Assembly: GCA_051362555.1 (NCBI GenBank)
Contig: CM120640.1
Span: 1,302,001-1,366,000, forward strand
Length of the DNA stretch: 64,000 nucleotides
From: Lingula anatina
Lineage: Eukaryota > Animalia > Brachiopoda
Reading direction: 5' to 3'
The position numbers and the translations under genes were made by a program. Below the pieces are notes generated by a model. It did no database searches. It was given only the letters and a program-made list of their open reading frames with translations, and was not told the origin of the DNA. This document shows, one piece after another, positions 6,627-60,951 of this stretch; the stretch's first letter is position 1, and every line of letters starts with the position of its first letter.

Positions 6627-8195
6627 TTATCTGTTGAAAGATCTCCATTTCACAAGATCGCTGGGTGGAATGCCAAACTTCAGTTTTCTGTTATCTGTTT
6701 CTCTACTGAAAAAATATCCACAGGTTGGTTTGGCGAGTGTCCCGAATGGAGCGAGAGTGTTTCCTTTCGTCACTCTCGAAGGTGGCTCAGCGGTGATAAG
6801 CCCGATGCCCCGCGTTCCCGTGGGGGTTGGTTCGGCCCAGGAGTACATGGACACGGACTCAGGGGCGGGAGAGGAGGTCTCGGAGTTGTTCCCTAGCAGA
6901 GAGATGTTTGCTCTCGCTAGCGGATCAGGCTCCTTCGGCTGTTGGCGGAAAATGTTGTAGCGCGAATACCTTAAAGAAAATAGAAAAGTTAATTTCCTCA
7001 GCTGTATTTATGTTATAAAGATAAAGTAATTTTTCTTCAATCAACAGCCAAACATCACCTTAAAAGAGGCTATTCACCTGGGAAGCCTCCTATCCTGCTG
7101 AAGATGCTCTCACAGACATCGACATATTGGAGGTGAACCATTTCAATATTCAGCTTCTGATTGAAGAAAAATTACCTTTTCCAGAAAAGATACCTGTTTA
7201 ATTCACCACTAATCATTAAATTATCTCCAATTACCAACTCGTTTGTTCATTATAAAAAAAATTAACATCTTTTTTCTGATAGAAATAAGCATAGCAGGCC
7301 TATGACTTAAAATTTAATAAAAAAAAAAAACAATACTCGCAGTTGTGGTATTTTATCGAAAGCTGTGTCTTTATCATCGAATAAGAGAGTTGTAAAGTTC
7401 CTACTGTTCTTAAATTGAAAATGAAGTTACATCGACGTAGCAGCTTTGGTTTCTATGGTCATGAAGTTATATGATATAACACTGTTCTCAATCAAAGTTC
7501 TTTTGTTATTACGGAATTCGATCAATAAAATTGGCAGAGAAGTTGATTATAGCGGTCACGGGTGTTATACGGTGCCTTTGAGCACAGCTAATATAGATAA
7601 AACACGAAAACATTTTGGATGTAGAAGTGTGATGAAATTAACCATAGGTTAGATTATCATTTCTTTTTCTAAAATTATGAAAAGAAGTGCTATTGAACAG
7701 TGTCTTAACTAATGTAGTTTATATTACAAAACTGTAAGTGATCAAGTTCACATCTGCCTCTATATTTTCCATTCACTTTATCTCTAATGTATAATTTTGA
7801 TATCACCCGTGTATTTTTAAAGTTAGACGTGTGATGTCAGTCAGGCTGAACACCCGATAACCCCCTCCCAGAGATGGGATGTACGTGTGTTACGACATAC
7901 TTTGTGTTTGCTTAGATATTAAATCATGATAATTTATATCTAAACGCCATAGGAACAAGAACAACAGCCCGTTACAACCGGCTCAAGCTCGTCTTAACTT
8001 GGGGTATGGCCATAGTTTGGGACCCAGAAGAAAACGTGCCCAGTGCCATGTTTGTTTCTCTTACCTGTTTTCCAGACCAAGGGACCTCAGCCTCAAGGTC
8101 TCCAGGCGTTCATAAGTTACAGTTCTGGCGTCCGGATTAAACGAATGAACGTGTGGAGCCATTAACTGTAACTCTTGTTGTCCTCCTACGCCCAT
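6627..8195 (-). CDS. CIMIP3: CIMIP3/GUCA1ANB-like ciliary microtubule inner protein, 157 aa; exons 8195-8065 and 6969-6627
   Basis: ATG at 8195, donor CAG|GTAAG at 8065/8064 (phase 2), acceptor TTTTCTTTAAG| at 6970/6969, frame open to TAA at 6627. The C-terminus NTLAPFGTLAKPTCGYFFSRETDNRKLKFGIPPSDLVKWRS matches my recollection of the CIMIP3 motif [38 protein letters not shown]. Confidence 0.8.
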
Positions 8196-17500: not shown

Positions 17501-20500
17501 AATAATAATGCGACCCCACCTTACATACAGTGGTCGCTTCTAAAAACTGATGAATTTGAATCCACGTTGTTTAATCCTTCTGATAAAGAATTTCGAGAGA
17601 AAAAAACCAGTTAATTGAGTGCGTCAGACCTTGTAATATCCGTTTCACTTTAAACAAATCTCCCTGAATAAAACATCTCCAGGTACAAGTATAGCAGTCG
17701 TGGGTGTAGACGGTGGACTGGAATGAAGACGCACTCTTAATGTAGGTGGATTTTTAAAGCTACATTATCATTGACTATGTATATGTCTTAGAAGTTTCAA
17801 TGTGTGGGGATAAAAATAAGTCTATTAATTTATTTATTGATGGTTTTCCATTGTGTTGGGTTCTTATAGAGGTGGAAAGGTCGCATGCTGCACCTCCCTT
17901 TCCTCTCAAAAATTCATTTTTAAACCTTTGATTTCATAACTGGCGTTCTGTTTCATTATATCTTTCGTTTGTTTACTCTTCTAATAATTTGAAACAAAAT
18001 CTCGAAAGATTATTGTAGATGTTTTCACTTCGTGATAAAACCAGCTATATGTGAGTAGCAAAACCCATCAAACCAATAATACCGAGCTTTGTTCAAACGT
18101 AGTAACACTTGTTATTTATATCACTTAGCAATTTCACAGTGACAAAAGGCTCTAGCATGGATTATTGGTGGTTAGTCGTCTAATACCAACCAACAAAAGT
18201 AAAGAAATAAAGGCTAAAACACCAAAACTTTACCTCAAAATCCCTAAAGCCCGTCTTTCCAATTTGATAATGGACCAGTAATATTTGCGATAAAAAGTCG
18301 AAAATAGCATTTAGACGAATTAACTTAAGGATTTATCATTCCATTTATTAAGTAAAGGCAGTGGGAACCAGGATTGCCCCCAAGTGAAACACTTTGTAGT
18401 GTGTAAACGGGCCTTTTAACGCAGGATCTTGGATTTTTAGGTGGGCCTGGTTACAATGAAAGAAGTGATAACCTTTTCAGCAATGTTCGTGTTATAGAGT
18501 TTAAATGTGGTGATTTCATTGTCACTGGTACTTGGTAGCATCAAGCAATAAATCAAGAAAGCAGTAGATCATAGACTTCTTTTTAGCAGTGTCTTAGGTG
18601 TCGACTATGGGGAACGGGTACCGGTGACTTTATTTGATGTAGCAGACCCCGTGCTGTGATGATGTGAAGGATGACGGGGGTGAGTAAGACATCACGATCT
18701 TTGCGTTGATATCATGTAACATACCAACGGAAAGCGATTGTATTTATGTAAATAAGACAGAAAAATAGCGAAAATATTCTAATGTATGTTATAAAGATTG
18801 ACACTTTTGTTTGCTTAATGGGAGCACTCACATGCACAGGCACACATGCAAACCCACATGCACGCACATGCACGCGCGCACACAGAAACCCCGGCTTAAT
18901 CTCACGGGCACATATAAGCATGCACAATCATTCACGCACGCACACGCTAAATCCTGGAAACCCTTTAGACGAAAAGTGTCAAAGGTTTAAGCGGCTGAAC
19001 CTGAAAGGTACATATTCATTACACCATCAGAACATTTAATTAAGCTATTAGCACCGGACTCCTACCACATATCATCAGCACTGACAGACAAAAAATGGTA
19101 CTTGAAAGTGATCTAACCTGACATAATGAAACGAGTGTGACGAGATCGGACCACTCTGCGGTTATGGAGCATTATATCTGACCTCAGAGCTGTGATTATT
19201 CACACCGCACTTAGCGAGAGAGACGTCAGGGCAAACATTTTCACTTCTTTTGATCATAACCATGAAAATAGGCAAGTAGTGAGAGGGCAGAGACGGAGAT
19301 ACGGGCCACAGTCACTGAACGCTACAGGCTGAGAAAATAGTAGTACAGGTAGTTAAAAAGAAATTAGGGATTAGGGACCGAAAAAAAGATTGAAAAACTG
19401 CATCATATCAGCGCCTGGGTGGTTTTTCTGGTGACAACTTTATGCGGGTCTCGCAAGCAGATCGATGATAGAAGCGATTATAAGATTTTAAATTAATTTT
19501 TTATGATGAAGTTGTAAACCCGTCTGTTCAGTAATGCGAGAGCACCTCTCTGACTGGCTTACTATTGTTCAATACTTTTTTCATTTTGGTTAGTATTTAT
19601 GAATCAGTAAAGTACGCTAGTTTTTGCTAAAAAATCTCATTATAACAGCTGAAAAGATCACACGCCGAGTCTCAGAACTGTGACACTGCCTTCCCCCCCC
19701 CCCTCCATCCCCTGGCGTACGCTTACCACAGCCATTTAACAACGATCACATTTGCTGAAACGTTAGGTGCTCAGACTGCGTTACTAAAAAAAAAAATATG
19801 TGGATTTTTAATCTTGAGTAAACTTTGGTGTCACTGCACAATGGCAAAGGGCCCCATACCAAACTTGGGAGATATTGTTTTCACTGTTGATATCGACCGG
19901 TAGAGGAATGTCAAGTAGAGATTAACTGGGTTTAAGTAACTATTGATGAGATGCGTAAATAGTCGGCGTTGTTGACGTAGCAGTGCGTTCTCTGGAAAGG
20001 TCTACGATGTTTACAAACATAGCGCCAGGCTTGGCTTACTTTATACCCGAATACGACTATTTTGGGTAACGTATAGGGATAAATTGCGGCATCATTTTTA
20101 CTGAACAAAGAAGTATTTGGCTTTGTTTGTTTTTAAACCATTTAAATATCCCAGCAACTGGCTTGGAAGGTAGAGGGAGCTCGAGTGAACCGTTTTTTCA
20201 AGGTTCTTCAAGGTGTACCAACAGAGCACCAACCTGGTTTATTTTCGTTCCCGAGTAACGTTATTTTTTGGCCAGCGCATTGGAATAAGGTGGTCTCTCT
20301 TTAACTTAACTAATGTAGTATTCAACTTGCTGAAAACTTTCTTTAAAAATCAAACATCGAAAGGTGTTCACTTCACATTTACGTCACAACCTCTCACGAG
20401 GAGAGGAAACACTTCAACACCTTTTTGGATGTATGAAATTACCTATTCCCCCTCCTTTGTTTGATATTATAATAGATCATCTGTTTTCGTAAGGTTATGA

Positions 20501-21004
20501 TCAATTCTGTATGCTAGAGCTCAAGTAACGCATTTCGCACTTTATACCGACCAGCAGTGCTTGACGGCCTACAAACAATCCGGGTCCTGTACGGGGCTCA
20601 ACATATAGCCAAATTTCTATAATAAGTTGAGATGCGGGGATCAATTACCCAATTTATATCGGTCCGGAACTGATGAAGGTTGCGGAACAATTTTTAATTG
20701 AGTAAGGTTGCCGCAGCCCATTTAGCCTGACGTCTGTTCGGCAACCCGATACTGGGACCTTTCAAAGTATTACTTTTTATAACTCGAGAGATTAGATAGC
20801 TACCTCCGATTCACAGGTTCCCTGCCGCTCTCAATCAGCTATTGTTAAAGTCCAAGGGGCTTGGATTGCAAAAATGAGATGAAATGAAAGATAATTGGAC
20901 TCTCTCACGAGCTGAGCTTCGTTTGAAAAACCAGATGAGGAGAGTTTGGTGCACATAACTATTTCTGCCTCTGCAACGCATCGGATCTCCTCTCTCTTCG
21001 CCTG

Positions 21005-22033
21005 CCAGTTTGTCCGAGCGTCTTAGCTAAGTGGCTGTCTGGTGAAATAACAGTCGGATTTGTTCAATGAAAAGTGGTTTGAGAGGAACGTGATATTAGA
21101 CGTGATTATTTCGAGAAATAATTTGAAAACTGCAAATCATTCTGGCTAACGTTTAACGAAGATTTACATGCGTTTACACGATCTAGGATCCGAGTTCTTG
21201 AGGCGTGTTAAGTAGTGCGGACTTAATCTGGCAGGTCTCCGGTAAGATTGTCGGAAGTTCATTAATCAGGATTGTTGTGTAGAGCTCTATCTTTTTATTC
21301 GAGGTTGATTTCTCTCTTCAGAATCCTGAATAAGCCAGTTGTCACCCCCCTTGTGAGTGAGTCATCTTAGAGACCTGAAAATACTATATATAGATTGACT
21401 CGCTAACTTTGCTGGACTGAACTTTGACGTCTCAAAAACTAAGCATACATCAGCCGATCAAGCCACTACGTACGCACAAAGAGCCGGGTTAGTGCACTGT
21501 AAAAAGTCCGGAGTACCCAAGTTGAGTAGAGCGGACGCCGGCATACATAAATTGGGACTTAACTAGTTAACGAGACATTAGGAAGGTGATCCGTGCACGT
21601 CCTTTAGGATACAAATATATTTTAAGCAATCACAGGTGCGACACGTAGCCACCGGGCAGCAGATCGCGGTGTCCAGTCAAAAGGTTAATACAAGAACCTG
21701 TTGTTTACTTCGTAAGAACAAAAGAACTACTTAAAGGGACTCTTGACTAGTCCAGAAATTAGGATAGATAACTGTGAGAAAGCCCATCGGGAAAAGGGAC
21801 GTGTTCAGAAGTACATTGTATAAATTGTTGAAGTCACTCGTCATCCAGTATAACTTACTCGTTACGTTTCCACCCTTTATTGTACTGACGACGAGATATT
21901 ACTGAAGACAGTGACAAATTGGCTCGTCTGACAGGTGCTCCAGACGAGTGCAATCGGGATTGAAGAGAAGACGAAATCCGCCTCCTACCTCTTAAATTAC
22001 GGTTCAAACGCACGGAGACTTGCTTCAGCAGAG
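21005..22033 (+). other. Putative long non-coding leader (5'UTR) exon(s); start approximate
   Basis: No plus-strand ATG from 21171 to 22070 although CAT occurs repeatedly. CpG-rich. Ends at donor GAG|GTACGT (22033/22034). Possible 80-nt internal intron 21242-21321 (CCG|GTAAGA ... TCTCTCTTCAG|). Confidence 0.6.
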
Positions 22034-23166
22034 GTACGTACTCGTTGACACTGTGACTGTCTGGGAGATAATGGTTTATTAAGCGTTAAGTGGTGAGCTG
22101 TATGTGTGTGTGGTGTAATATTAAGATTCTTATGTTCATTTTATGTGCTGCTCAACACATTCAAACTTTTCATAAAGCACGCATCTTTACTTTTTACTTA
22201 CTCTGTCGACATCTTTTTTGTCTACCTTTTATTACGGTGCGCTAAAGGGCAATCCCCTGTTAATTAAGTCACGTAATTCAATTTCTCGGTATTGTAATGT
22301 ACGTGTTCCTTTTCATGTAATTCTGCATTCTTATCGTTAAAGTTTAGTCACCGGGTTGATAGGGCAACTCCTAATCTTTATTAATGATAACTGACCATAA
22401 ATCGATACATTACAGCTTTAACTAAAATTTTACCATTGATAACCTGTTTAAAATGTTCAGTCTACACATCACGCGCTCAAGGCCTTACTTCCTTCAATGC
22501 CACCGAATTAACAATGATTAACTGATAATGCGTCGGGATAATCCCTAAGATAAAGCCTATCAGTGGCGGCATCTCTGGCGCAATTGTTGTCTCAACTGTC
22601 GCATTCACAAGAGCTCCACCACGACCAGATGTGCCTCCTCCTTTCAGCTTTCTGGATGTGTTAAGCTAGAGAAAGATAGAGAAATTATCACTAATCCTTT
22701 GCGGGAGTCGTTTATCTTTGAGCAGTAGCAATTTACCTGAACTGACTCCAGTGAAACCTAAGTCTAAGATAGCGAGGCAGGGCGTTAAAAGAGCGAATTT
22801 TTTTGGCATTCCCCTCGTACAAGTAGGCTTAAACACATTTCCTTGACCCTTGCTCGCTGATCTTCAGATAGCAGGAATACCGCAAAGGCTCACATAGCCG
22901 CCTCTGCCGCCCGCACCCGTTGCCCCAGAGAGCGTTATGAGACAAGAAAGGCATTTGTAGTGGGAACAATTCATAGCATGATTATCAATAACTGCTGTCA
23001 AATCAGTAAAAGCACCATAGTGTCGACTTTGACGTGGTAGGTCCCCATCGTGTTCTGATTACCACCCCGTCGCGTTTCATTCAGCGTTTCTTGTAATCTA
23101 CTTCCATCGTATTAACACTCCGCGGCGAGACGCGCGCCAACTGTTTGAGTAGAGTCAAAGTTCTCA

Positions 23167-23365
23167 TTAGATCCCGATAGACCGATTCTGATTCGATCCT
23201 TATGACGCAAGCATTCCCGATTGTATTCTAATATTGTGGCTTACCCAGTTTCTTCTCGTTTTATGCTAAAGCAGAAGTTAAAAGTTTACGAAATATTATG
23301 CGAGAAAGTGATGGGTCAGATGTCGGACTGCTGACGCTAAGGAGATCGAATCAGATTCGATCTAA
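23167..23365. mobile_element. Degenerate inverted-repeat (MITE) relic
   Basis: TCTGATTCGATCCTTATGACGCAAGCATTCCCGA (~23187-23220) resembles the reverse complement of ~23322-23354 (TCTGATTCGATCTCCTTAGCGTCAGCAGTCCGA). Confidence 0.55.
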
Positions 23366-23740
23366 GGCACCGTGGTGTGAACGCTGCTAAAAGTGACTGT
23401 ACTAGAAACCACAATTGCTAAAACATTCTGAAAATTCTTGTTTATGGATAAAAACCACAAGAAAGAAGATGCCCCGCTGCGCCGTTACGTTACAAAGGAT
23501 ATTATTACAGTGTGAATATCTGTGATGATTTCTATTACGCGGCCTGCTGTCCATGGTGCCATTCTACCCTTGTAGGTAAATTGGCAAGATTAGTTTTTTG
23601 TAGCTTTTTTTTCACCCTTGCTTTCGAAGTAAGGCACGTGGGTAGTTTCCTTCACGTGAACTAGGTTGATTACGGGTCACGGGATGAGGTTTTCACTATT
23701 TTACCATACCTAGCTTTACATCCTAATGATAATAATGATA

Positions 23741-23744
<4 letters not shown>

Positions 23745-23771
<27 letters not shown>

Positions 23772-23790
23772 AATTTATTCTTGCGACTTT

Positions 23791-23847
<57 letters not shown>
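23745..23847. repeat. Compound microsatellite (TAA)n..(GT)n(GA)n
   Basis: Direct reading. Confidence 0.9.
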
Positions 23848-23856
<9 letters not shown>

Positions 23857-26800
23857 GATTATAACGGTTCAAGTGTATTTGTGTTGAAAACATCGCAACG
23901 TTTGTTTTTTCTCTTGCGTCAGATTTGAAATCCGATAACATATTATGATAAACGAGCCATGTTCTGTTCTGTGATCAATTCACAACTTATTCTGCTAAAT
24001 TTGCAACATTACGGTCGTCTGCAGCATAAGAATGGAGATGGAGCCTGTTTGCTCTTTCAGTGCCTTTACTAACCCATTAGCTGAAACGCGCATAACAACG
24101 CTGTTAAACAACGTGCAAAATAACGTTAACATTACGTGCCACGAAGCCACCTAAAGGCAATAATTAGATCATTGAAACGCTATCTTAATAGGTCTGTGTC
24201 TTGGTAAAGGAACAACCAGGCGTTATAATGCATAGAAATGAACAGGATGACGCAAGGAAAATATCTGGTTGCAAAGTATTACCTTTTTTTAATTATTTTA
24301 AGATTATATCCTTGTTTTAAAGGAGTGACTTGAAGTCTTTCACCTGTTTAACCAGCGTCACGTGACATAGGTAACACCGCTCCTTAGCTTGGGTGAGGGC
24401 GCCGATATCAAGTTCAGCCCCATCAGCCCATTATCTTACTAAGAACAATCCAATCGAAAGATATCTACATAAATTAGAATTGTATATTTAGTCAGAGCCG
24501 TGAGAAGTTGGATCAACAATTCAGCGTTTTTTTTCCAGGTCAATGGGCGAAAAACAACAAAGTGGGGATATGCAATCAATTTAATGACTTTTCCGTTTGC
24601 TGGAACAATTAGAATAGTCTTTATATATCTACAAAATTTGAATTGCATTAGTAGGCAGAATTATAAGCAATTGAGTCAACATCGATAAAACATAACAGTG
24701 GGAGTTAAGAGGAAAAACGCGTTCTTACGGGGATTTGACTGAACTCACGCGGATGTATTGCCGTCTAAATAAGTATTCCGTTCCGTTTGTTAAAAGGTGA
24801 ATAACACGTGCTGAGAGCGATATCAAAAACTAATTAGATTAGAATAATTAGACCAGATTTTGGACGCGAATCAACCCAAAGCAGGTATTTTCTTTAGGTT
24901 AGCTATAAGCGGTATCCTATCCTCGATTTTCCCACCAAATTAAACTTTCCTTGAAAAAAAGAAGTAATTTTCTTCAACTCACAAGTCTTTTCTCGACTTC
25001 GATGTTTTACACCATCTTTAATTAGATAATTCAACTCTAAATGTTTCCCAAAAAGTTTAAAGCGACATGCCTTCTCTCCAGTCTTAAGATCTGAATTGAG
25101 ATAGAAAATGAGGTTTGCACGATATGAAGACATAGAAACTGACTTTAGGACGTTTTCAAAAGTGGATAGTCTACCTATAAGTGACCTCAGAGCGATAGTA
25201 TGTAATAGAAGTCGCCCGTCCTAGCACTGGCGGATTGGAGAAAATCCGGTCGTGTCACCAACTCTTATTACACCGTACCTTGCCTTGATCTGATATTATG
25301 AGATAGAGATTTCGACACAAGGTTACCAAGCGGAAAACAGGCAACGAATGTCACTTAAAAACATGGTAGTGACAATTAGATAACCATTAATAGGGCATAA
25401 TTCCCCACCATCAGTGCCCTCTCTGCCTCCTGCCAACCTGCATGTAATGAGAGTAGGAAGTCGAGGTGCCCATTAACAAAAGGGATGTCGTTAAGCATCA
25501 TGAAAAAGCTGTAATCTTGTCGCCTACCCATACAATTAAAGAGATGCTGAATTTTGTGTGCAAAGCTTTTTTACGACGCTCCCCGCGGTGAAATCTGACT
25601 AAGTCGTCGAAGTTGAAGATAGAAGCTATTTCGAGTCAGCGTCTTTCATGTGTAGCAGTAATGCGGAGGTTATGCACGCGTGTTTGTAAAAATTTTGTAA
25701 CAAGTCGACTATTTTAAAGGTAAGTTTAAAAGCTAGTGCTTTTTATCGTCGCTTTTAGTTCTCCGGCAACGTTTTTTACACCAGACTTTCATTTCATGCC
25801 AAACAGAGATACATTTCGGCAGACTGCAACGGCATCCGTCACAAAAATAGAGGCTTAATTTTGTAAATATGAACAGGAAGTATGTAAAAAATATTATTCG
25901 TACTTCTGTACTTTTTATTGGTTTTCTGATCATGCTAAATGAAAAAAATCTCATAGACGTCATTCTCATGGCTGTTCCGCTGCGAAATCTTATCAATGGT
26001 TGTATGTTGCAACGCTAGCGACCTTAGAACAATCAAGGAACATTCTCTTGGGCTGCTGGTATTCTGAAGATGTTGCGGTTTCCCGCTATCTTCTATGATA
26101 CCAAGATATAGCGGAGTCCCGGGGTAGGCAGGAGGACATGCAGACTTTAAAGAGTGCTCTGTGGGCCTTCTTTTGAAAAAGAGATACAGTTGTTAGTACC
26201 AGAGTACCTGGAACTTTAGGTTATCAACCTTCACAAGGCATCCCCCTGTTATTTCCGATTAACAAAAACCAACAACGTTATTGGCGCCGGGGCTTGCATT
26301 ATTCATCAAATACTAGAGGCGGGAGGTAGGTTGGTCATTTTATGGGGGCTTGCTACATCAGGGACCCGGGCTTTTAAGGTGAGTTAAGAATCCCTCTCTT
26401 CTGTACTTTTCCCCCTTCTTGACTCTACACAGTAGAGAAATGTCTGTTAGGGCAATGTTTAGCATGCTCGGCGTGGTTGGACTTGGGCTGACATATATAC
26501 ATCCTCCTAAAAGTATTAAGTTAACCTTCCCACACAGGTAGGTGTGTATATACATAACAGTTCAGATGTCCAGTGCCCGGTCCTGACCCGCCAGAGCACG
26601 GACACCACGGACCTGCCAGATCTACACTCTTCAGAGTTACTCTGGAAAATGGTAAAAATTGTTCGACAGAAATGCCAGTATCGGTCTTCTTAGTTAATGG
26701 CAATATGAGCTCTATTTAGGACTCTACATTCTAAATATAAAACCGCAACTACTAGGGTTTCTCTTTATATCCCGTATTACTATTATTCTGCATTTATATA

Positions 26801-29800
26801 TACGTATCTCCGCTCTAGTATTACCACCTTTACTCCCATAGGAGTTACATGACAGCAGGGAACAATCCATTAAAATACATAAAGGACAATAAAAACTTAA
26901 ATCGATTGTTCAACCTTTATCGCCTGTAGCGCTCTATCACAACATCAGGAATTAAGGAAGATTATAAAACATAGAAGTTGCGCGGAGGGATACGGCATAG
27001 ATTTAATCCATAAAATATATATTTCTGGATTGGCGGGGCGGATTGATGTGATCTGTAATTGCTCGACAACGTCAGGTACTCTTCCCCTATAAACAGTGCA
27101 CTTAGTAAAGGTAAGCGTTAACTTTGCCTTGTCTTAATTTAGAACTTATGATTTGTGATATGTGTATCAGAGTCCGCGTTTCCCTACGTGGAGGTACGAA
27201 CTTGTCACACATACATCGGTTCTGTTTTATGTGCTTTACAGTGAAGTAGACACAAGTTTGGTGACATCTTTTTTGCTAAGCAGTGTCTGTTTTTGTGCTT
27301 TTGGTGTAGCCTTTTCCGTAAAGAAAAAAAAAATAAAATACCTGAAAGTAGAAATATAGGTTCAGTACCGTAAATCATATACAGCAAATGAACAGACCAT
27401 TTGGTTTTCATAGAGCAACCCCTTTGTCATTTCTTGGACCCCCTCTCGGTACAGCTTTTGACATTGCGTTAACTACTGTTGCCCTTGAAACCAAACAATA
27501 GCCCATGTATTGCAAATCTACTCTCGTTTTGTTGGTAGAGTTGGAGCTATGTTATTAGCTCCGTTAAAAACCCATGAGGTGATGTTCGCTTAAGGTGCTC
27601 GTGTTGTGCTCGCGGCCTTAAACTGTCAAACAAATTACCAATTATCTGCCGAGTTTTGTAAAGCTTTATAATGTCTCAATAGTAAAAACCGTCATATTCT
27701 CCATTTGTTTAAAAGTTCAGCGTTAGTCTGAACCCGGCACGTGTATTTGCACCGTGTGTTCTGTGTTAATGTCTGCCATATTACACAGAGTTCATGAAAT
27801 GGAATTTCTTTTATCTCCCATATTTGTTTGAGATGAACCCATTCTGAAATAGGACCATAATCTATGAGGCAATTTCCGCAAAAGGTCCTTAATTATGATG
27901 AAAATACCCATTCATTTTTTGACGTGTACCATGGAAGAGCAATAACATACTGGAAACATGAAGCATATGCGTCCCAACATGGTATGTCTTGTTATGTTCG
28001 TGTTGATTTTCATGCCATCAAGATTTTCATCTCAAAATGCACTTTGAACAATGTTCATTACTAACGAAATGATGGATAATGCTGTCATCTGAGGACTAAG
28101 TATGCAATATTCAAAGGCACACACCCACGCAGCCTTGTTACCGGATTGGCCATAGCACATTGGTACACGCTCAAATCTATCGTTTTCTGGTCTGGTCTTG
28201 CCTGTGGGTGGCTTCCTTAGAAAAAACGTCAGAATAATTCGCCAGACAGATATCATGCATGTTTATTGGGTATGTGTAAAATGTCGAAAGTATTATTTAC
28301 CCCAATCTACAAACATTGTTTGCATTCTGGCTTGCCTCCCAATAGTGCTTCCAGATCGTGGAAGAATTGCCGACGAAAAGCGTGCTGGAAATGTTCCGAT
28401 ATCATTCATAGTGATCGCATCCAGGGAAATGGTTATAATTGGGTATATTATCCCCTGTATCCGGAATCATTTCAGTCTTTGCTATATGTTCATACATAAA
28501 TTTTCATTAGACAGGACGGTTTTGTTAAACCATTCAATGCCATATTCCTAATCATTCAGTTCATGCAATGTTGGCGGTACTAAGGTTAAAACACAATATA
28601 ACACACAATTACTGATGATATATTACTTTTATTTAGTCGACGGGACATTAACGCCCACATTTTTTCTAATCCTGTGTTTTTAATCAGAACTATTAGAAAT
28701 CAAAACGCCAGCTCGTACTCAATAATTCAAGGCGAGCTTTAAACGGACACTTCCACAGAGAGCCCCACTGCGTAGCAATAACGTCTTGCAAATAATGAAA
28801 AGGCGATACATTTTCTTTTCATTCTTGATTAGAGTTGTGAAGGCAGAAATAGGCAGTATATTTCGATGCTGACGTCCATTCATTACTTTCAAACATTAAA
28901 CTAATGAAACGAAGACAGATGGCAACAAAACTTCTCCAATATAAGAAAACGTTTTCAAGTGCGATGACGGAAGCGATAATTGGAATTGAGGGCCACATAC
29001 AACGGTTCCCTGATACACAATGGAGTTAGCTTATTCTATATCAATGAGTAACTCAACATGTCCAACTCTCTGCTATTATTTGGGTGTTTGCACTTTTGTG
29101 GCAAGCAAGCACATATGTTGTCAATTGAGACAAGACTCTGCGGCTGTTGGTTGGTGGCTGCGGTTGACGTCTCTTTGTTGGTTGGTGGTTGACGTTTCGT
29201 TCTGTGTGTTAGTTGGTGACTGTTGTTGACTTGATATTGTTCTCTGTGTTGGTAGCTACGTCTGGTGTGGCCCATGGTATCTAGATATACAGTTCCACAC
29301 TGTCTACAGCTGTTGACTGGTCAGATAGTTCCTATAGATACACTTGGCGACTAGGATGTCATTGTGGTCATTGTGGTCAAGCAGTGACTGGACAACTGGC
29401 AAGACCATCCTAAGACATATATTCCGTGTTAATGAGACAATGAATGACGTCAGATTGCCATAAGACACATATCCTTATACATATTCTCACAGATTTTGAA
29501 GCGATTACTGTGACTTGGGTGTCTTGGATGAAAATGATATTTCATTCACTTCCTGTGAAATGATCTCAAAGAGACGAGGATATTCTTCAAACGTCAGATG
29601 ACGAATATCCTCGAACTTTCAATACCGCGTGGCATGAAAATGACTGGGCCATCTTTGATTTCTTGATTACAAATGGTATTTCAATACCGCCCATTGATAA
29701 TTGTTTCAAATAAATCACAGTGATTCATTTAAATTACGAATATCTTTTTAACTTTTTCGTACATTTCATTCTAAAGTAACTTTGCCAGTTTAGGTTATTT

Positions 29801-32800
29801 ATAGGGATTGGTTTCGTTCACTCTAAACGGGAATGATTTCTTTGAGAAAAAATGAGCTTAGAATGAAGCAATCATATTTGTGCCAAACATGTGATTGTAA
29901 TTAGACGATAGCACCGTCCAGACAGGTTGGAATCTTTGACGTTGGTAGCCGTTGATCAGTGTCATCGTCAGAAAAAAGCAGGTGCCCGTTGCGGTAGTTA
30001 TATGACAAATCATGTATTGAATGTAATGTTTCCCGTCTCCTCGGAACTCATCTTTTTCTGTCAGTTTTGGAGATGCATTTCCATAATGCAAGCACGACTT
30101 AAACATGAAATGGTACTTTAAAGACACGATACTATGCAGGATATTGATTGCGTGTCTTCCTGTGCTATTTGTATGTGGGTTGTAGAGAATTGTCTTCTAA
30201 TGTGCGATGCTATTCACATCACGGACACCTTGCACCAACAGTATATACCATGCTCTCTCTCTCTCTCTCTCTCTCTCTTTTTCTCTCTCTGTTCACCCAA
30301 TGCTGAACTCTTTTCCAGCTATTGAGAACTAACATATGTGGTGGGTGATCGATGTTTCAATGTTGTAAATTTAATTCTTTTGATTGCTTTTCAACTCCAA
30401 TACATTTGATACAAATTCTGTTACAATTGTTTACTGTGGAGGGTTAGTTCAGCACAAGGGGTGGTCATATGAACATAGCCAAAAACACCATTTACGTCGT
30501 AAGCTATGCCAGGACAACGCTCTCCAATAATTAAAAATGCCAACAACAGTTGTTCCGTGTTTTATGCTGTTTTTTTTTTCAGTTATAATAAAACAGTGAC
30601 TTACTCTAATCCTACTCGCATTTTCTCGTTGAAGCTTTAAGAGATGAGATGTAATTCAGTAGTATTCTTTCTTCCAACTGCACATTAAACAGTATGAAAC
30701 ATTTCCTTATGGTTTTTTAACCGTTTTATTTATGTACCACCTGTTAGTATCATGGCGGAACTACTATAATTCAGGGAACTTAACTTCAAGGCTAAGGAGA
30801 GAGATAATGCAAAAAGAGCTAGAGCTAGTATTTAGACAGAGGGAAGAAGTGATGATGCACCACTATTTGGACAGAAAAATCTTCAGATCTATGTGATTTG
30901 AAACTTGGCTGAGTGGCAAGGAGCTGGGTTAGGGTAGATAACTAATTGTCAATTAAGTATAACGACTGTGACGAAGAGCAGCCTCTTTGACCGCATTCTG
31001 ACACGGAATTAGCATTTGTATAAGATAAGATTCTTGGAGTCACGTAGAAGTGAAAGTTCTTTATCATCTTTAATTCCCATCATTTCGAATGGTAAATAGT
31101 GGAGAAAACAATAAGCAATGAAACAGATGCTTTGCTCGCTTTATTTCAACACATTTTGCGTGACAGGCCAGGGGTGCAATTGTACATGTAAGGTTCATTG
31201 CCAGATTCTGAACTTCCAGTTTCCAATGGCACAATTTGTTAATACCCTACCAGTGTTGCCCTGTGGTTATAAACTAAACTGCTACTGACTGTGGCGATTT
31301 ATCCTCAAAACGGTGTCATGTTAGAAGGGCTTCCTTTTGGCTTTGAAGAAACGTTGAATTTGCAAACGTATCTTATAATTGGATAGATATACCACTTAGT
31401 ATTTTCTTACCAGTAATCCACTCGTCGTCAAAAATTGTGCGAAGATGTAAATTTCTTTTATTACAGTAAAGAGTAACCTCCATACCGGACTCTGATATAT
31501 GTGATGTATACCATCACAGTGAACACGGATGGTAAGGATTCGTGCTTGTTTTGAGATTCTACATCAGAATTGTCATGATTTCCTTACCAGCCAACCAAAT
31601 CGGGGCCGCACCAATTCTACACGCAGCCAATAATTTTGGAACAGGCGTGTGTTGATAAAATAGTCTTACAGGGTGTTTGTTGCCATGTTCCCGGTAGCAC
31701 ACGTTTTGTTTTTTCCTTTAGAAACTTGATATTTGTCGTTTTCAATGCAATCCAATCGGAACAAGTCGGATACCTTTCATTATTTATAATTTTATATGTA
31801 CGGATACGGATTGTTCATTTTGGGTCGGGTTTAGATTTTGCAAGCCCTCTCTATAAATCACCAGCCAGGGTGGATAAGTCCCGTTGCTCACCGAGCTTAG
31901 AAAGGAGAAAATGGAAAGGGAATTGAATGGTTTCCGGCTGGCCATTATTCTTAGATTACAGGTTTATACTTAGTTTTTCACGATATATTGCACGTTTATT
32001 AATCCATTACGACCTGCTAAACGCTTAAAGGAAAAGGTCTGCCAGGTGAATTAAACGACATAACAATAGAAATGGAACAGACTAGAAGTGTTATTGACAG
32101 ACACTATGTCTTTGCAGTACGATAAGACGCCTAAAAAAGACGATAAGTGCACTGTCTAATGGAATAGAAGGACCTGTAATGACAATACAATTGATATTAA
32201 GTCCCAATTGATAGTCCATATACATTGTTCATTGGCGTTGTATTCTTAGACCCACGTCATTGATCTTATGGGGATTAATTCATGTTTGTACATTACATCA
32301 TGAATACTTTTCTTGTTAATCACGTGTATTCAGTTCAATTTTCTAACCAGGAAGAGTTTATTAAAGAAACAACGCATTTCCAAAACAAATCCCTGATAAT
32401 CTACTATCGAAGCAGTCCAGTTAATAAAATTTATTTGCAACACAGTAGGTAGCTTTGAACACAGAAACCAGGGGTGAAAGTTGACCCGCACACTACACAG
32501 GTTTACCTCTTAGCTTCAATCCCTTCTTTATCTTATTTCGATCAGCAATAAAAAAGGCATTTAGGCATGTTAGTTTTTTTTAGTGGCCAGGAAAATGTGC
32601 TTGGGTTTGATTCGTATCTATTGAGCAACTGTTCTTACTTGTCGAGTTCACAGAGCGCAAAGTTAGTCACAAGTGCACTGAAAACCACTTTTTAAATCAA
32701 AAATGTTTTTAAGAAAATGGTCATGCTGTTGCGTTCACGCCCCGCTCTTTACTCTCCTGGCATTCATTCTTGACACCCTTCAAAGTCAATTCGCAGTCAT

Positions 32801-35020
32801 CAATGTTACTTGACTTCTGTACGCCATCCCAGACAGCCATCCAGTTATGGTCCAAGAACCTTTAATTACTGTTCTTGAACCAAGGGGCGTGACGTCAGAT
32901 TATGTTCAACGGTTTTTGAGTGTTAAAAGTGGCCTTTGAAAGGCGCAGACGACACTTTCGCTCTCCTCAAGCAAGACCCGGCAACTGGTACTGGTGGAGA
33001 TTATCTGATGCTCCCGTCACCCCGCTTGTTAGGTACGATACAGCGCCAAGGCGTACCAGGGCTCTCTTCCGCCACCCATAACTGAACCACTTTGTAAGAT
33101 AGCGAGAAAATTGATAAAATGTTTAGATGGTTCAGTTAAATATTCATTTTGGCGGCAGATTTGTTGAAATATGCCATGTTGAAAGACAGTGTTTAAACCT
33201 ACATGTGACAGTGTGGTACAGATCTAGTCAATGATGTTATTTTACATATAAATTATCACAATCACTGCAAGATGAAACATTTGATAAGATGATGCAGATA
33301 TAGATAAAAAAATAAAAAAACTAATTCCATTCTGATTATTTATATCTTTCTGAATATTGTAAACTTTCGGTGTGGGATATGAAGCCTAGATGACAATGAG
33401 AGGCGTCAATAATAAAGCATTTTGTTCACTACATGGCATAGTTGATGTGCTTTACCACATCTATTTATCAAAGAGAACCGTTGATGACCATAGGAATCAG
33501 TGACGTGGAAAATACGTCCCCGGCCACCAATAAAACATGCCAACAGCTCCAGTAATTACAGACGCTGTGACCCGTGTTTAGTGCCATAAATCATTGGATT
33601 TTTTTCACCACATCCACTTTGGTAAGATATGAAGCTACTTACAAGATTCTTCTGTTCATTCACAGCTGCATGTGGTGTAATTAACTTCTAGCTGATAAAG
33701 CGGAAAGCCGTCTGCAACTTTTCTTACAAACAGCGTGTGTAGAAAAGGATTTGTTTATCTCAAAACGTTCAGCCTGTTCTTTTTATCCATTCTGATACAG
33801 TTAGGTTAAATTTTGGGGCGTTCTTTTGATTTTTATTGGTTTGCAAAAAATAAAAAAAAAACTCTTACTTCCACAACCTATAAATCAGCTATAAAATGAT
33901 CTCAATAACGTTACTCTGTTAATCGGAATTTTTAGGAGAAGGGCATCATCAGGAGGATCTACGGTCAGTGGAAGAGCTCGAAATGCTTAATGTCCAGCGG
34001 TTAAAGAAAGGTCAGAACGCTACGCTCTCTGACTACTGGCCGTTAAAGTGGACGTTTAACGGACTGTAGTTGATTGTTAAGCCTTGGTGCTTCATTGTAT
34101 CTAGTATGGAGTGTGTCTCATGAACAGCAGCGGCCCAGATGTGTTTTGTGTAAAAACGTGTGTGCCTTTCTCAGCTTGAGGTAGTGCGCTTTTTGTAGCT
34201 GCAGTGGCAGAACACCCTGTAAATACATTTCCGTATTACTACTGCTTAGTTAGGCAAACCGTGATTCCCTATTTCGCTTGACACCATTTATTATTTCATT
34301 GAACATAAAGAAAGTTTGACGAATGGTGCACAAGTTTGAAAAAGTCCCCCACCGATTAGAAAAAAATCTATTTTTGCCAATATTCTCTCTGGGCTAACCA
34401 CATGGAATTTTGCTACGGATATACGTTACCAATGTAAGAGGTAATGCAATGCAATAGAACTGGCAGACAGCCACTTGTACATCGGGAACAGTATCCAACT
34501 TTCTTTACCTGAACACATGTTTTATTGTAGTATTGTTTTCGAGAAACGCGGTTGGGCATTTTACATTTCTTGTTGAGTGCGTAGCATCAAAGTTAACCGG
34601 ATTACACTACGTTTACAGATCAACCGGCAGAAAGTAGTTATAACAACGCCGTCGTCAGTATGCGTTCCACTAAGACACATGCTCTTAGCAAAACAAGTTG
34701 TAATCTTAAGTAATCGACGTTTTCTTGCTTCATTTAAACGTTACTAAAAGTTCAGGTCTGCAAACCCTAAAACCATCTGTTTGCCAGTATGTGGTTTCTA
34801 TACCGCGTTCATACCCGTCAGATGTCGCCACTGACGCATACGTACAACACGCTGCCTCCGCTACCGTTAATCAGAAAATCACTCTTTTCCGCAATCTGGA
34901 ACAATTTGCTTTCGTCATACTACTGGAAGATCATATTTCACTTAAAGGCCATAAAACCAAACCCCTTAGTAATATCACAAATATTGACCCCGATTTGCAT
35001 GTGTCACTCTCTCGGACTGC

Positions 35021-35028
35021 TATATAAA
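35021..35028 (+). promoter_or_regulatory. Candidate TATA box of the CAP gene
   Basis: TATATAAA about 150 nt upstream of ATG 35174 with no intervening ATG. A good acceptor (TTTTCATTACAG| 35065) lies between them, so an upstream exon is also possible. Confidence 0.45.
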
Positions 35029-35173
35029 CCAGCACACTTTCACACATTTTGTGTTTTCATTACAGCTCCAAGCTACGCGATACTCGAGGACGTCGACTGA
35101 ACTCTCTAACTCCAAGAAGTTATCACTCTCTACAGACAAGAAGTGCAATTTAGCAACACAGAGTCAAAGGAAA

Positions 35174-35309
35174 ATGGATTGTATACGTGACCAGAGCAAC
35201 AGTTCTATACTACGATTGACAGTGACATTACTGTTATGTGTTGTTACTTTAGAAGCCAGAACGTACCACAATAGACACTGGGAGAATAAATTGATAAAGA
35301 AAGGCTACG
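35174..35309 (+). CDS. CAP gene exon 1: signal peptide
   Basis: MDCIRDQSNSSILRLTVTLLLCVVTLEA|RTY.. with a hydrophobic core. Donor ACG|GTAAGC, phase 1. Confidence 0.75.
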
Positions 35310-36002
35310 GTAAGCTATTTCATTTGATTTTTCTATCTATATGTCTTTAAATATATATTTAAAGGAAAAAAGTAATCTACCTACAAGTGTTGTTTAGAAG
35401 TAGCGGTTGGCAGTGTAATGTGAAGTTGCGTCTGTGAGGATTTATAAGCGTTTATGTCTTTAACCGTGGGGTCGGGGTCAGCTTAATGTATACAAGGTTT
35501 TTATCTGTATATACAAGACGTGGAAATGATGGTGTTTACTGGAATATATGACAGGAGAAAGTACTCTGGCTGAGATTCCCAAAATTTTTCTGCTATTTTT
35601 GTTTCGCGTTTGTTTCAAAATCGTGCTTCGGCGTGTATACTTGGCACCCGCTGTTGATTGAAGTCGACAAGTTGTTTGAAGCAAAGAACGTGGAACACGC
35701 CATAAAGCAAGGCATAAACGACTTACATGTGGACCGTTGTTGATGTCAGTGCTACCGTGCCCCCGAATTCCCACTTGTTTTCTCCAGTTTTACGCACATT
35801 TTTTTTACTTGAAATATTATAGCTTTTGGTAGAGTCCGGATTGCAAATAAGACTGAGCGAAACGTAAAGATTGTTTGTAGTACACAAGGTAGACAATAAA
35901 CACTAACGTATTTATTTCTGATAAAGAAATTATCATTGCCTTGAATTAATGTAGGTATACGCTATATCAGTAAAACATCGAATCGAAGTTTATTTTTGTC
36001 AA

Positions 36003-36057
<55 letters not shown>

Positions 36058-36981
36058 GATAATGGTTGTGATGATGCGGGACAATTAACTCAAAGCGGAC
36101 ACTTATTATCCCGGGTTGATTAACAGGGTTCAGTGGAAAAAAACACGGACAGTTTAATGATCCGGAATAATGACATCAATCGATACGACTTCTCCTTGTT
36201 ATGTCGGAACTAAGAAAATGACTTGTTTGTACTTAGGGAGCATAGGCTTTAAGCGTCTGTTCCCTCGCCTTGGAGTCGATGTTAAAGCAGATTGTTACAC
36301 CAATAAAAACGCATTTGCCTCGCGTGGCAGGGTAATGTTGGCACGCAGCAGAACAAATCAAAGCAGGCCTTGGAAGGCAATGTGGTTCTGATAAGGCAGG
36401 CCCTTTGTCTTCGAATCAAGATATTACGCCTAACACCTGAGAACGAAATGGTAATCATTAACTTCACTATTGTTCCCCCTGATGGACCCTGGATTGCCTC
36501 TCTGCGCCACTTTTGGTGGTTCTGGTTCGTTCCAGCTATCTGAGCTTTACCTCTGTTTGGGCCAAGTTGACGGAATGATGCCATTAGTCACTATTTCATT
36601 TTGAAAAGTCTCTTTTCGCTTCCCACAAACCACAGCTTGCTGGTTGAGTCAATTGCTCGGTATTTGTCAACCGCTGATATGATATGATAACACGCAGAGT
36701 AAATGGAGACATTTTACCACAAGATTGATTCGTTTCGTTAATGGCGTAACGCGTGGATGGATGGCATTAGATTTATGAGCTGGTTGTTTGTTACTTCAGA
36801 AAATATAAGTGACATAAGTCATTAAGATTGACTGTTTTCTTAGGGATTTATAGAATCTTACAAAAAGCAGGCATTGTGGCATCTCACGAACTTAGACTTT
36901 TCACTTTCTTACAAAATATGAACATCTCGCCATCTGATAAAGAAGTAGGTGTTTTAATATATTAAGAGGGTAGTCATGTCG

Positions 36982-37026
<45 letters not shown>

Positions 37027-40000
37027 GCATAGCGTTATCTGAAAAAAATGACAGTATATTGACAGAAACAATCGTCCTCTATGTATCCATTTTACGCGAA
37101 AGAAAATGAAATAGTCTGTCCGAACACCAAATGCCGTCATGTCACTTGTGTTAATTGAAAGATACGTTTAGGAAGGGCGAAAGACGCGAGTCTGTTTTGT
37201 TTTCCTTATGTTTTAATGTTAAAAGCTTTTTGTGTGGTTTGGGTATGTCTCATTGTTTTTAAAATAGGTGGAAGAAGACGCATTTTGCCTTCTGCTAAAT
37301 CATTTATTTGTAATTCTTGAAATATGCCAACATCACTGTATGACTATTATCTGATGTCATCTTGTTGAAAGAGCGAGTTGGTGGATGTCGTATTGCATAA
37401 ACAGATGTAACAGATCAGGAAGTGAATAAAAACATATATTTTGACATCATTCCGTGGATGATCTGGGATGATTTCATGAGAAGGGCAGATACATTGGTGA
37501 TTGACAGAAGGCTCGTGGAACTGAGACATCCACCCAGCTTAATGGTTTGTGGTCGGTAATGCGGGGATTGTCGAATCTGTAAAACAATCTCCGTCTCCAC
37601 CACGCCTTTTCTTTGAACTGAAATCGCATTTAAAAGCATATAATTCGAAAACAGCATTGAATTTTAGAAAGAAATATCGCTGCTGCGAGTACAAAGGCTA
37701 AATATTATATCGTGTTTTGATCCTTACTGCGTTCTTGTCTTTGGGTGTAGTCTAGATTACCAAGCGCCAGCCATTCCAGACTTAAAATCCTCTCATAGCC
37801 GGCCACTTGCTAATTTGCCCCCTTCGCCACAGAAGGCTTCAGTCAGCTCGTCTCTGGCAGTCTGCCATGAAGCACCTTCCTCGCCCAGACGTGTCTATCC
37901 TGTAGTTAACGACCGATGCAATGGATGAGTGAGAGGTGAGAGATCCCGCGTACGTGCAGCAGACAGGTATTTTTGAAATCGTCAGACAGGAACTTCCTAC
38001 TTCCGGTTCATGCATGGGTGCCTCATTCCGCGTTCTTGGATCTCTCTCTCTTTAAATTTATTTTCGTTTTAATGCCTGTCCCAAATTTTATGATTGGTCT
38101 GAAAGTGAAATACTGTCATGTTACTTTATTCCCTCCTTACTTGTGTTCTAACGTTTAGAAAAAACATAAAACAGGTGACAGATTCCTATGATATTGTAAA
38201 ATAATGCACCAACCGAACCCATGTGTTCTCCCTTTCCGTGAATATAAACTGAACTAACGAACGTAATCTAAAAACCAAAGAGGGAAGTATCTCATTGCTG
38301 GGATACTGCAACCCACCCCCAATTCTGTAGAGTGCAACACGTGTAGTTGGCTCCGTGTAGCTGGCAACAAGGTTCGTCCAATTTAAAACCAGGCACCAAT
38401 CTCTATTCTGCAGGAACCTTCAAAAACAATGGAACCCGGCACCTTGAGTACTTTAATTGGAAACAACTCTTTTGAGATGTTGTTGTACAGATACCTGTAG
38501 TTGAAAAAGGCAAGGTACTAATCTTGGAGTTTTGTAGGGAGTCAATTGCCATACACTTTTAAGTGGGTAATCTATTTAGTTCATCAGCCCCATGGTCTTG
38601 GCCATGTTAAAGCTTTGGACGACGTATCCCAAAAGGGGGTATTTAGAATAGAACTTGAATGAGAACTACTCAGCGCCTGTTCTTTGCGTTTTACATCATT
38701 TGTCGACATGTCCCTTCGCTTTGAATCATTGTTTGAAATATAAAACGGAGAAGCAGAATCAAAATAAATTTTGGATAAATAAAATTACGTTCTCAGCACT
38801 TTCGTATGCGGTAGCTGTATGATCTGGCGAGTAATTTGTTTGAAAAAATGACTACTCAGCACGGCTACCCCGCCCCCACGCCACTCCTGAGCGTTAAAGG
38901 CCAAATGTATTTGTCTTCGTTTGTGTTTGAGTTGTATGACAGGGCAAAAATTAAAGCCATTATGCTCCCTTGCAAGAAGCTGTCACGAAAGGCAAAACCC
39001 TTAGTTAAAACCCAGTCCATTCTTCACTATTCTACCACAGGATAGCTGTGCATGCTAATACCAGATTATGTCAACTATAGCTAAATGCGTTTTATGACAC
39101 TCAATTGCTCCTTTAAAGGAGTTATTGGTTTTCAGACCCACTTAATATGGCTTCTATTGGCTTCCGCCGTTTAATGAGGCAACTGCGTGTTGGTGCATTC
39201 TGTTTTTTATACGTAATTGTTACATTTAATATCTCATGACTCGCTTCAACTGACTTATTGAACTAGTACGTGCATATCTTCTTTCCTTCTTGTTTCTTTT
39301 TTAATAGATATATACCACGTATTTTCGTCTGTTTTTATTTATTTCTCTATTTATTTTCTTAGGTACAGATAACTGGGTGACCAAAAATCATATCGGAAAG
39401 CTGCCTTACGGGAAGACGAAGGTAAGACTTCATTTGGAAATGGTTTTACATATTGAAAGCATGGTTTGATGCTCAGAGGGTGCAACGGCAGATTACGACC
39501 AAAGTCGTCGTCTTTCCCTGAATGTATTGATTCTGGAATAGGAGCGTGAAGCACATGGGCATATTGCTTTTCACGAAGCCCCTGGAAAACCTTTTCAATT
39601 ATTACATGGCGTCGCCCTGCCTCTTAGTTCTTCTTTCAAGGTACTGTATGCTCCACTTAATAAACTGGTTCTCGGTACAAACGTATTATACTCGCGGAGA
39701 TAGAAACAGCTTGTGAGGCGTAAAAGATATGCTAAGTTTCTTTACCCAAACAAAAAGTCTAGGGAGCCTTCTTTGTCAAAATGTCATCGGATTTAAGTTA
39801 ATGAATCGTTACTGCCGTCTCATTCTGAAAGCTGAAATGGATTCGGTAGGATGACGGTTCGAACGTCGGTGGCTTGATGAGTTAATTTCACTTTGTGTGC
39901 ATTTACAGAAGGTCAACCGTCATCTCAACTTTATTTAAGCATGCGTAACCAGCATTCTGGTTTGTGTATACAATTAAATTTGAAATTTGTTAGGATGTTT

Positions 40001-48768: not shown

Positions 48769-48808
<40 letters not shown>

Positions 48809-60860: not shown

Positions 60861-60951
60861 ATGGCGGGGGGCGAGGAGAACGGGCGTCTCACCTCTGGGG
60901 GACGAGACATGAATATTCTGGTCCTGGGAATGGACGGAGTCGGGAAAACAG
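60861..60951 (+). CDS. First coding exon of a Ras-family small GTPase (RERG/RASL11/RASL12-like); partial
   Basis: MAGGEENGRLTSGGRDMNILVLGMDGVGKT: a beta1 strand followed by the P-loop GxxxxGKT, then donor CAG|GTAATT (phase 1). No convincing next exon within the window. Confidence 0.8.

What the first reader, a model, noticed from the sequence alone, without database searches (positions are those of the whole stretch)
21005..22070. Orphan 900-nt strand-specific ATG desert ending in a splice donor
Seen: no ATG on the plus strand from 21171 to 22070 (roughly 15 expected from composition), while CAT appears about ten times. The stretch ends near GAG|GTACGT at 22033, with two short uORFs earlier (ATG 21067 and 21168). 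Inference: a long 5'UTR under selection against upstream AUGs, with no CDS nearby. It has three candidate partners. Acceptor 35065 would make it a second CAP promoter. Acceptor 50381, 12 nt before the 705-aa ATG, would interleave that gene with the CAP gene on one strand. Acceptors 60788/60822 before the Ras-like exon would give three levels of same-strand nesting. A leader shared among them is also conceivable.
Basis: partly seen in the sequence, partly recalled or inferred. Interest (0 to 1): 0.75.

Follow-up and report, generated by a model that had tools for sequence, protein, structure and literature searches.

The report
AUG-free long leader of CAP gene
The 900-base stretch without a start codon is the end of a long non-coding exon that RNA reads show spliced across 13 kb onto a brachiopod CAP-domain protein gene, and it likely lacks AUGs so that ribosomes can scan to the real start, an unusually long case of an ordinary rule.

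Summary
The desert is real and it is not an orphan. No plus-strand ATG lies between 21168 and 22071, while CAT is normal at 10; 0 of 3000 dinucleotide shuffles reach zero. RNA reads cover it in 3 of 8 runs laid, on the plus strand in the two stranded ones, and depth ends at the donor. One run shows the joint 22033->35066 (GT..AG, 13,032-nt intron; 4 reads, 2 starts). The partner is the CAP-domain gene LOC106181113 of Lingula anatina. The spliced leader has 971 AUG-free nt before a strong-context start codon. It is a minor isoform, about 0-19% of the depth of the CAP start-codon exon. It is one of at least two, probably three, 5' entries: RefSeq X1 fits an exon ending at 18679, and a proximal start near 35021 is inferred. 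Best reading: selection against upstream AUGs in a scanned 5'UTR, a known rule at unusual length. The start site and a transposon origin remain untested.

The parts
20948..22033 (+). Long non-coding 5' leader exon of the CAP gene. The 3' end is exact; the 5' end is not mapped and reads reach into the bin 20405-20947.
   Evidence: X6 depth 0.54, 1.94, 2.86 in the three bins up to 22033 and 0 in the next bin; X8 0.69 in 21491-22033; X4 0.82 in 21337-22003
21171..22070 (+). ATG-free run: 863 nt in the exon plus 37 nt of intron
20874..21215 (+). Cluster of six short uORFs (ATG 20874, 20879, 20884, 20935, 21067, 21168; 2, 2, 24, 7, 8, 15 codons). The three nearest the desert have a pyrimidine at -3 and no G at +4.
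   Evidence: translation untested
22034..35065 (+). 13,032-nt GT..AG intron in the 5'UTR
   Evidence: joint 22031->35064 (cut +2), 4 reads, 2 starts, 60 letters on the shorter side, run X8
18671..18679 (+). 3' end of another upstream exon (ATG plus two codons, then a GT donor) that fits the N-terminus of RefSeq isoform X1
   Evidence: 15-exon model from 18671 gives 646 of 648 identical residues to P0002; no depth there in 4 of 4 runs laid over it
35021..35028 (+). TATA-like box of an inferred proximal CAP promoter
   Evidence: motif match (motif recalled). X5 has about 14.6x depth on the CAP exon, none in the leader and no loose ends listed before 35066.
35066..35309 (+). Shared acceptor exon: 108 nt without ATG, then the CAP start codon at 35174 (A at -3, G at +4)
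35174..56260 (+). Coding span (14 exons) of the CAP-domain protein, RefSeq LOC106181113 of Lingula anatina
   Evidence: (PF00188, E 9.8e-26)

Best explanation
The desert is the 3' part of a non-coding exon of more than 1 kb that is transcribed on the plus strand and spliced at 22033 onto the start-codon exon of the CAP-domain gene at 35066, and its AUGs have likely been removed by selection so that a scanning ribosome would reach the true start. Shown: transcription, strand, splice junction, partner gene, strand-specific AUG depletion, and 971 AUG-free nt before a strong-context AUG. Inferred: that the exon is a first exon with its own distal promoter; that the isoform is translated by cap-dependent scanning; that a new uAUG would cost initiation at the CAP AUG and, lying upstream of 14 exon junctions, would likely also trigger nonsense-mediated decay (general knowledge, not tested). 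Transcripts starting near or after 21170 would have no uAUG. Those starting further up would carry up to six short uORFs and would rely on leaky scanning or reinitiation over the remaining 926 nt.
For: Joint 22033->35066, GT..AG, in X8 (4 reads, 2 starts). Leader depth in X4 and X6 on the same mate orientation as the CAP exon, with X6 falling from 2.86 to 0 at a bin edge placed on the donor. In the part defined by RNA alone (20948-22033 plus 35066-35173): 2 ATG against 21.3 expected, Poisson P 1.3e-7. ATG 2 vs CAT 14 in 20948-22033, P 0.002. Flanks are not depleted: intron 15 vs 16.1, upstream 17 vs 18.7. The donor scores above 99.5% of 3966 GT sites on a matrix from the gene's 13 other donors. 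No unusual structure: z 0.27, 13 of 20 shuffles fold as well. uAUG depletion in 5'UTRs is documented (PMC2674463; PMC11057154), and a 900-nt leader can be scanned efficiently (PMC3141257).
Against: The joint is listed in 1 of 8 runs and may be only two molecules. Leader reads are absent in 5 of 8 runs, including X5 and X7, which express the CAP exon at about 14x; a minor isoform under such strict selection is mildly surprising. X2 shows depth 0.45 in 22004-22670 with none in the bin before, which may be pre-mRNA or read-through. Reads extend upstream into the uORF cluster, so some leaders are not AUG-free. PMC2674463 reports weaker uAUG depletion in alternative 5'UTR regions than in constitutive ones. 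No conservation, polymorphism or ribosome data were available.
Confidence: 0.72

Rival explanations
1. The exon is the same spliced leader, but it is an internal 5'UTR exon of a transcript that starts further up (for example the exon ending at 18679), entered by an acceptor near 20789-20839. AUG depletion would have the same cause, but there would be no promoter of its own. This is a variant of the best reading, not exclusive of it.
For: Acceptor-like sites at 20789, 20839 and 20817 score 4.2, 3.9 and 2.6, within the leave-one-out range of the 13 true acceptors (1.7-12.0). X6 depth begins in that bin. RefSeq has several models of this gene.
Against: No depth at 18002-19335 in 4 of 4 runs laid there, though X6 was not among them. 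No loose ends listed at the 5' side in X6. An internal exon of about 1.2 kb would be unusual (general knowledge).
Confidence: 0.2
2. The exon is an exapted leader of a retrotransposon (LTR-element or LINE 5'UTR). Its AUGs were purged while it served the element, and the CAP gene merely captured it.
For: A 900-nt scanned leader is known for LINE-1 (PMC3141257). LTR elements expanded recently in L. anatina (PMC13121700). No genome was available to exclude other copies.
Against: 0 of 111 stop-to-stop frames of 48 aa or more in 17500-35065 reached a Pfam curated cut-off; the 8 weak hits at E<=0.05 were not transposon families. No second copy or LTR pair in the window. Leader reads are laid without listed loose ends, unlike repeat patches at 24911-24951 and 25121-25159. 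No look-alike among scanned windows.
Confidence: 0.12
3. The gap is a chance run in a neutrally evolving or barely translated minor exon, picked out because many windows were read.
For: About 1-2 gaps of 900 nt or more are expected per 329 Mb by chance. Isoform abundance is low. The desert's end 37 nt after the donor is no surprise in itself (P 0.48).
Against: The gap lies on the sense strand of an exon defined independently by RNA and joined to a coding gene; within that RNA-defined part P is 1.3e-7.
Confidence: 0.08
4. One reading: the leader is also spliced to the 705-aa gene (acceptor 50381) or the Arf-like exon (60788/60822), giving a shared leader and multi-level same-strand nesting.
For: The acceptor before 60823 scores well (9.6, above 99.4% of AG sites). 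The 705-aa ORF is a real conserved gene (27 homologues at E<=0.001). Neither region was laid.
Against: All 4 listed junction reads go to 35066. In X4 the 8 partly laid reads equal the 8 loose ends at the CAP donor; in X6 the 10 reads with long unmatched tails match the 10 listed there. The acceptor before 50382 scores -0.9 (75th percentile).
Confidence: 0.05
5. The leader works by internal entry, or encodes a non-AUG N-terminal extension of the CAP protein.
For: After splicing, the CAP frame is open for 70 codons upstream of the AUG, 34 of them in the leader exon.
Against: A one-base insertion behind 22005 in 4 of 4 X8 reads would shift that frame. No Rfam match of note (best E 2). Folding is no better than shuffles. 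Internal entry would not need an AUG-free path (general knowledge).
Confidence: 0.04

Closest known systems
uAUG depletion in alternative 5'UTR regions (Resch et al. 2009, PMC2674463; passages read; also PMC11057154, passages)
   Same: AUG is depleted against its permutations and against dinucleotide shuffles in a spliced, alternative 5'UTR.
   Different: Mean mammalian 5'UTRs there are about 180-240 nt and alternative regions are less depleted. Here 971 nt are wholly AUG-free in a minor isoform of a brachiopod gene.
Human LINE-1 900-nt leader, scanned cap-dependently (PMC3141257; passages read)
   Same: Similar length; shows that scanning over about 900 nt can be efficient.
   Different: This is a spliced cellular leader of about 43% GC with no ORF1/ORF2 or other element remnant found; scanning is inferred here, not shown.
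Long Toxoplasma 5'UTRs (bioRxiv 10.1101/2025.07.14.664749; abstract and passages)
   Same: Leaders of 700-800 nt in which the number of uAUGs tunes translation.
   Different: 90% of those transcripts carry uAUGs (median 5); this leader's last 971 nt carry none.
Alternative first exons from distal promoters (review PMC13631847; passages)
   Same: Several 5' entries into one start-codon exon, one of which changes the N-terminus (RefSeq X1).
   Different: The start site of this exon is not mapped, so first-exon status is inferred.
ATF4/GCN4 reinitiation leaders (named; layout recalled)
   Same: Short uORFs at the 5' end followed by a long spacer.
   Different: No inhibitory uORF close to or overlapping the main ORF, so the delayed-reinitiation switch is not present.

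Membership tests
Spliced 5'UTR exon of a protein-coding gene | Transcribed on the sense strand | tested here: met
   X4 and X6 leader depth only on the same mate orientation as the CAP exon
Spliced 5'UTR exon of a protein-coding gene | Joined by a canonical intron to the start-codon exon | tested here: met
   22033->35066, GT..AG, 4 reads from 2 starts in 1 of 8 runs
Spliced 5'UTR exon of a protein-coding gene | No AUG-started coding frame of its own into the main ORF | tested here: met
   all uORFs end 926 nt or more before the main AUG; the in-frame stretch has no ATG
Spliced 5'UTR exon of a protein-coding gene | One molecule carries the leader and the full coding sequence | not testable with these tools
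   short reads only; no long reads laid
Alternative first exon (distal promoter) | Capped start site at the exon's 5' end | tested here: inconclusive
   X6 depth begins in 20405-20947 with no read over the stretch's end, but no pile-up of starts was listed
Alternative first exon (distal promoter) | Other 5' entries into the same acceptor exon | tested here: met
   RefSeq X1 fits an exon ending at 18679; X5 and X7 express the CAP exon with no leader depth
Leader under selection against uAUG | Sense-strand AUG depletion beyond composition | tested here: met
Leader under selection against uAUG | Deficit of AUG-creating changes between alleles or species | not testable with these tools
   only two variants listed in the leader (21205; behind 22005), neither makes an ATG; no related genome held
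Retrotransposon-derived leader (LTR or LINE) | Paired LTRs, or gag/pol/ORF1/ORF2 remnants beside it | tested here: not met
   old, decayed remnants could be missed
Retrotransposon-derived leader (LTR or LINE) | Dispersed copies in the genome | not testable with these tools
   no own genome; 0 look-alikes among scanned windows is a weak test
ATF4/GCN4-type delayed-reinitiation switch | Inhibitory uORF near or overlapping the main ORF | tested here: not met
IRES or structured RNA family | Stable or known RNA structure | tested here: not met
   z 0.27; Rfam best E 2, far below its gathering score

The most novel reading that the evidence does not exclude
The exon is a two-zone translational switch. 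Start-site choice inside one exon toggles between a leader loaded with six uORFs (repressed or decayed) and a 971-nt AUG-free runway (translated), set by tissue or stage. Strand-specific ATG deserts could then be used to find unannotated kilobase leader exons in invertebrate genomes from sequence alone. X6 depth fits a step near 21150-21200, at the last ATG (predicted 2.0-1.8 vs observed 1.94), but a smooth 5' fall-off fits as well.
Probability: 0.2. Interest if true: 0.45.

Novelty: new member of a known kind. Interest (0 to 1): 0.22.

Why it matters
It settles the finding as an ordinary kind of thing at unusual size: an alternative 5' leader obeying the known rule against upstream AUGs. It shows that a strand-specific ATG desert can point to a real spliced leader 13 kb from its gene. 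It also gives a natural unstructured leader of about 1 kb for tests of scanning in a lophotrochozoan. It gives no support for the proposed multi-level nesting or leader sharing.

Tried and rejected
No whole genome is held, so the genome-wide distribution of ATG-free runs and the copy number could not be computed; simulations and a tail fit were used instead. No RNA holder was listed by the index; raw-read runs with the same species label were offered. Hidden coding role: all six frames are full of stops; one weak Pfam hit inside the desert (DUF3399, E 0.035, below cut-off) and one on the minus strand (CREPT, E 0.032) were rejected as chance. Structured RNA rejected. A 22-nt leader motif found 0 matches in metagenome contigs, which says little for an animal locus. 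The first two splice-site matrices were built on partly wrong exon ends and were replaced, whose model matches the RefSeq protein; the motif list and depth arithmetic are unaffected. Spliced-leader trans-splicing at 35066 was considered: no loose ends were listed before 35066 in 8 runs, and three paper searches listed no title showing it in Lingula; a very short leader would escape. The Atlas look-up for the 705-aa ORF gave no result. Earlier scan notes: none near this place, none by sequence or words; two unrelated notes from the same genome. Paper searches for the gene's identifiers found 0 papers, and the 10 listed of 12 for Lingula with uORF terms did not mention Lingula; supplements were not searched.

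Full report
Observation. The plus strand has ATG at 21168 and next at 22071, a gap of 903 nt; the next-longest gaps in the window are 419 (ATG) and 457 (CAT). CAT occurs 10 times inside. At the window rate 16 ATGs are expected. With dinucleotides preserved, 10.4 are expected in 21171-22033 and 0 of 3000 shuffles reach zero, while CAT is normal. The five permutations of ATG occur 13-20 times each. The flanks are not depleted. Chance gives such a gap in 2.4-4 of 10,000 windows, about 1-2 per 329-Mb genome (size from PMC13121700, passages). The gap is strong, but it needed independent evidence.

RNA evidence. Nine raw-read RNA runs with the same species label were offered; eight were laid, 6-26% of each read. 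In one search (16001-36000), X4 had depth 0.82 in 21337-22003 and 0.04 in the next bin, on the same mate orientation as the CAP exon. For one search I set bin edges on the donor and the acceptor. X6 gave 0.54, 1.94 and 2.86 in the three bins up to 22033 and 0 after it. X8 gave 0.69 in the last bin and the joint 22031->35064 (cut +2, i.e. 22033->35066), skipping 13,032 nt with GT..AG ends, in 4 reads from 2 start places. X1, X2, X3, X5 and X7 had no depth in the bins that lie wholly in the leader. X5 and X7 still express the CAP exon at about 14x, X2 at about 1x, X1 and X3 not at all. Leader depth is 0-19% of CAP exon depth in the five runs compared. X2 had 0.45 in 22004-22670, which may be pre-mRNA or read-through. 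No loose ends behind 22033 were listed in any run (threshold 3 reads).

The partner gene. One CAP exon matched a 609-aa protein named LOC106181113 isoform X2 of Lingula anatina, with a CAP domain. Four accessions share that protein, and isoform X1 is 39 residues longer. X1 maps from residue 4 at 35066, and its first three codons fit 18671-18679 followed by a GT donor; the 15-exon model gives 646 of 648 identities. So the acceptor at 35066 takes at least two upstream exons. A third, proximal start is inferred from the TATA-like box at 35021 and from X5, whose reads barely pass 35066 upstream (depth 0.01) and show no loose ends there. I could not see the RefSeq mRNA models, so this exon may already be annotated.

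Anatomy of the spliced leader. After splicing there are 971 AUG-free nt (863 + 108) before the CAP AUG at 35174, which has A at -3 and G at +4. Six short uORFs lie at 20874-21215. The three nearest the desert have weak contexts, which alone is not significant (P 0.058). In the part defined by RNA only (20948-22033 plus the 108 nt) there are 2 ATGs against 21.3 expected, P 1.3e-7. The desert folds no better than shuffles and has no Rfam match of note. The CAP frame is open 70 codons upstream, but a one-base insertion in 4 of 4 X8 reads would break it. The two variants listed in the leader make no ATG.

How it most likely works. A distal promoter (inferred) yields a minor mRNA with a leader above 1 kb. 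The small ribosomal subunit would scan it from the cap (inferred). Any new AUG would divert initiation and likely expose the mRNA to nonsense-mediated decay (general knowledge), so AUGs are purged on the sense strand only. Depletion of uAUG in 5'UTRs is established (PMC2674463; PMC11057154), and efficient scanning of a 900-nt leader is documented for LINE-1 (PMC3141257). Against this: the joint rests on few molecules, the isoform is minor, some reads include the uORF cluster, and PMC2674463 finds weaker depletion in alternative regions.

Rivals. An internal exon downstream of the 18679 exon is not excluded, because acceptor-like sites exist at 20789-20839. A transposon-derived leader finds no support in the window, but copy number could not be tested. 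Pure chance is unlikely given the coincidence with a sense-strand exon. All listed junction reads go to 35066, and the long-tailed partial reads of X4 and X6 are accounted for by the CAP donor. The 705-aa ORF is a real gene with 27 homologues inside a CAP intron, but its proposed acceptor is weak.

Known and new. This is a member of a known kind: a spliced alternative 5'UTR exon depleted of uAUG, at the long end of the range. It lacks the inhibitory uORF of ATF4/GCN4-type switches (layout recalled). Searches for the gene's identifiers found no paper, and the listed hits for Lingula with uORF terms did not mention Lingula. Papers were seen as passages, one also as abstract and outline, the rest as search listings; no supplement was read. 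Verdict: real, explained, modest interest (0.22).

Noticed in passing
window 50394-52511 (+): Intronless 705-aa ORF inside a CAP intron (48668-53113) on the same strand. It has 27 homologues at E<=0.001 over its first 110-260 residues, among them a Lingula paralogue (LOC106168691) and bivalve proteins; no Pfam family. The exact sequence is not in the protein collection and the word search found no relative, so it may be unannotated. Expression and promoter untested.
   Followed up: partly
window 18671-18679 (+): Upstream exon end that adds 39 residues ahead of the X2 start in RefSeq isoform X1, in front of a signal-peptide-like N-terminus (judged by eye); no reads there in 4 of 4 runs.
   Followed up: partly
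window 6627-6971 (-): Exon of a CIMIP3 (ciliary microtubule inner protein 3, PF22581, E 6.7e-18) gene on the minus strand, divergent from the CAP gene.
   Followed up: partly
window 60861-60950 (+): First coding exon of a small GTPase-like gene; best Pfam hit Arf, E 0.051, below cut-off. A good acceptor lies before 60823; its upstream exon is unknown.
   Followed up: partly
window 24911-24951, 25121-25159 and near 27340: Short intronic patches that catch partial reads with loose ends in several runs, probably fragments of dispersed repeats expressed elsewhere; the patch at 25084-25138 has an 80% inverted copy at 45802-45856.
   Followed up: no
window 29093-30178 (+): Low plus-strand depth in X5 (0.42, 0.11) inside the 13-kb intron; pre-mRNA or another small exon.
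   Followed up: no
window 1-525: Tandem array of a 35-nt unit.
   Followed up: no
window 35112-35263: Several variants in the CAP start exon differ between runs; the one at 35112 matches the residue by which the RefSeq X1 protein differs from the window.
   Followed up: no
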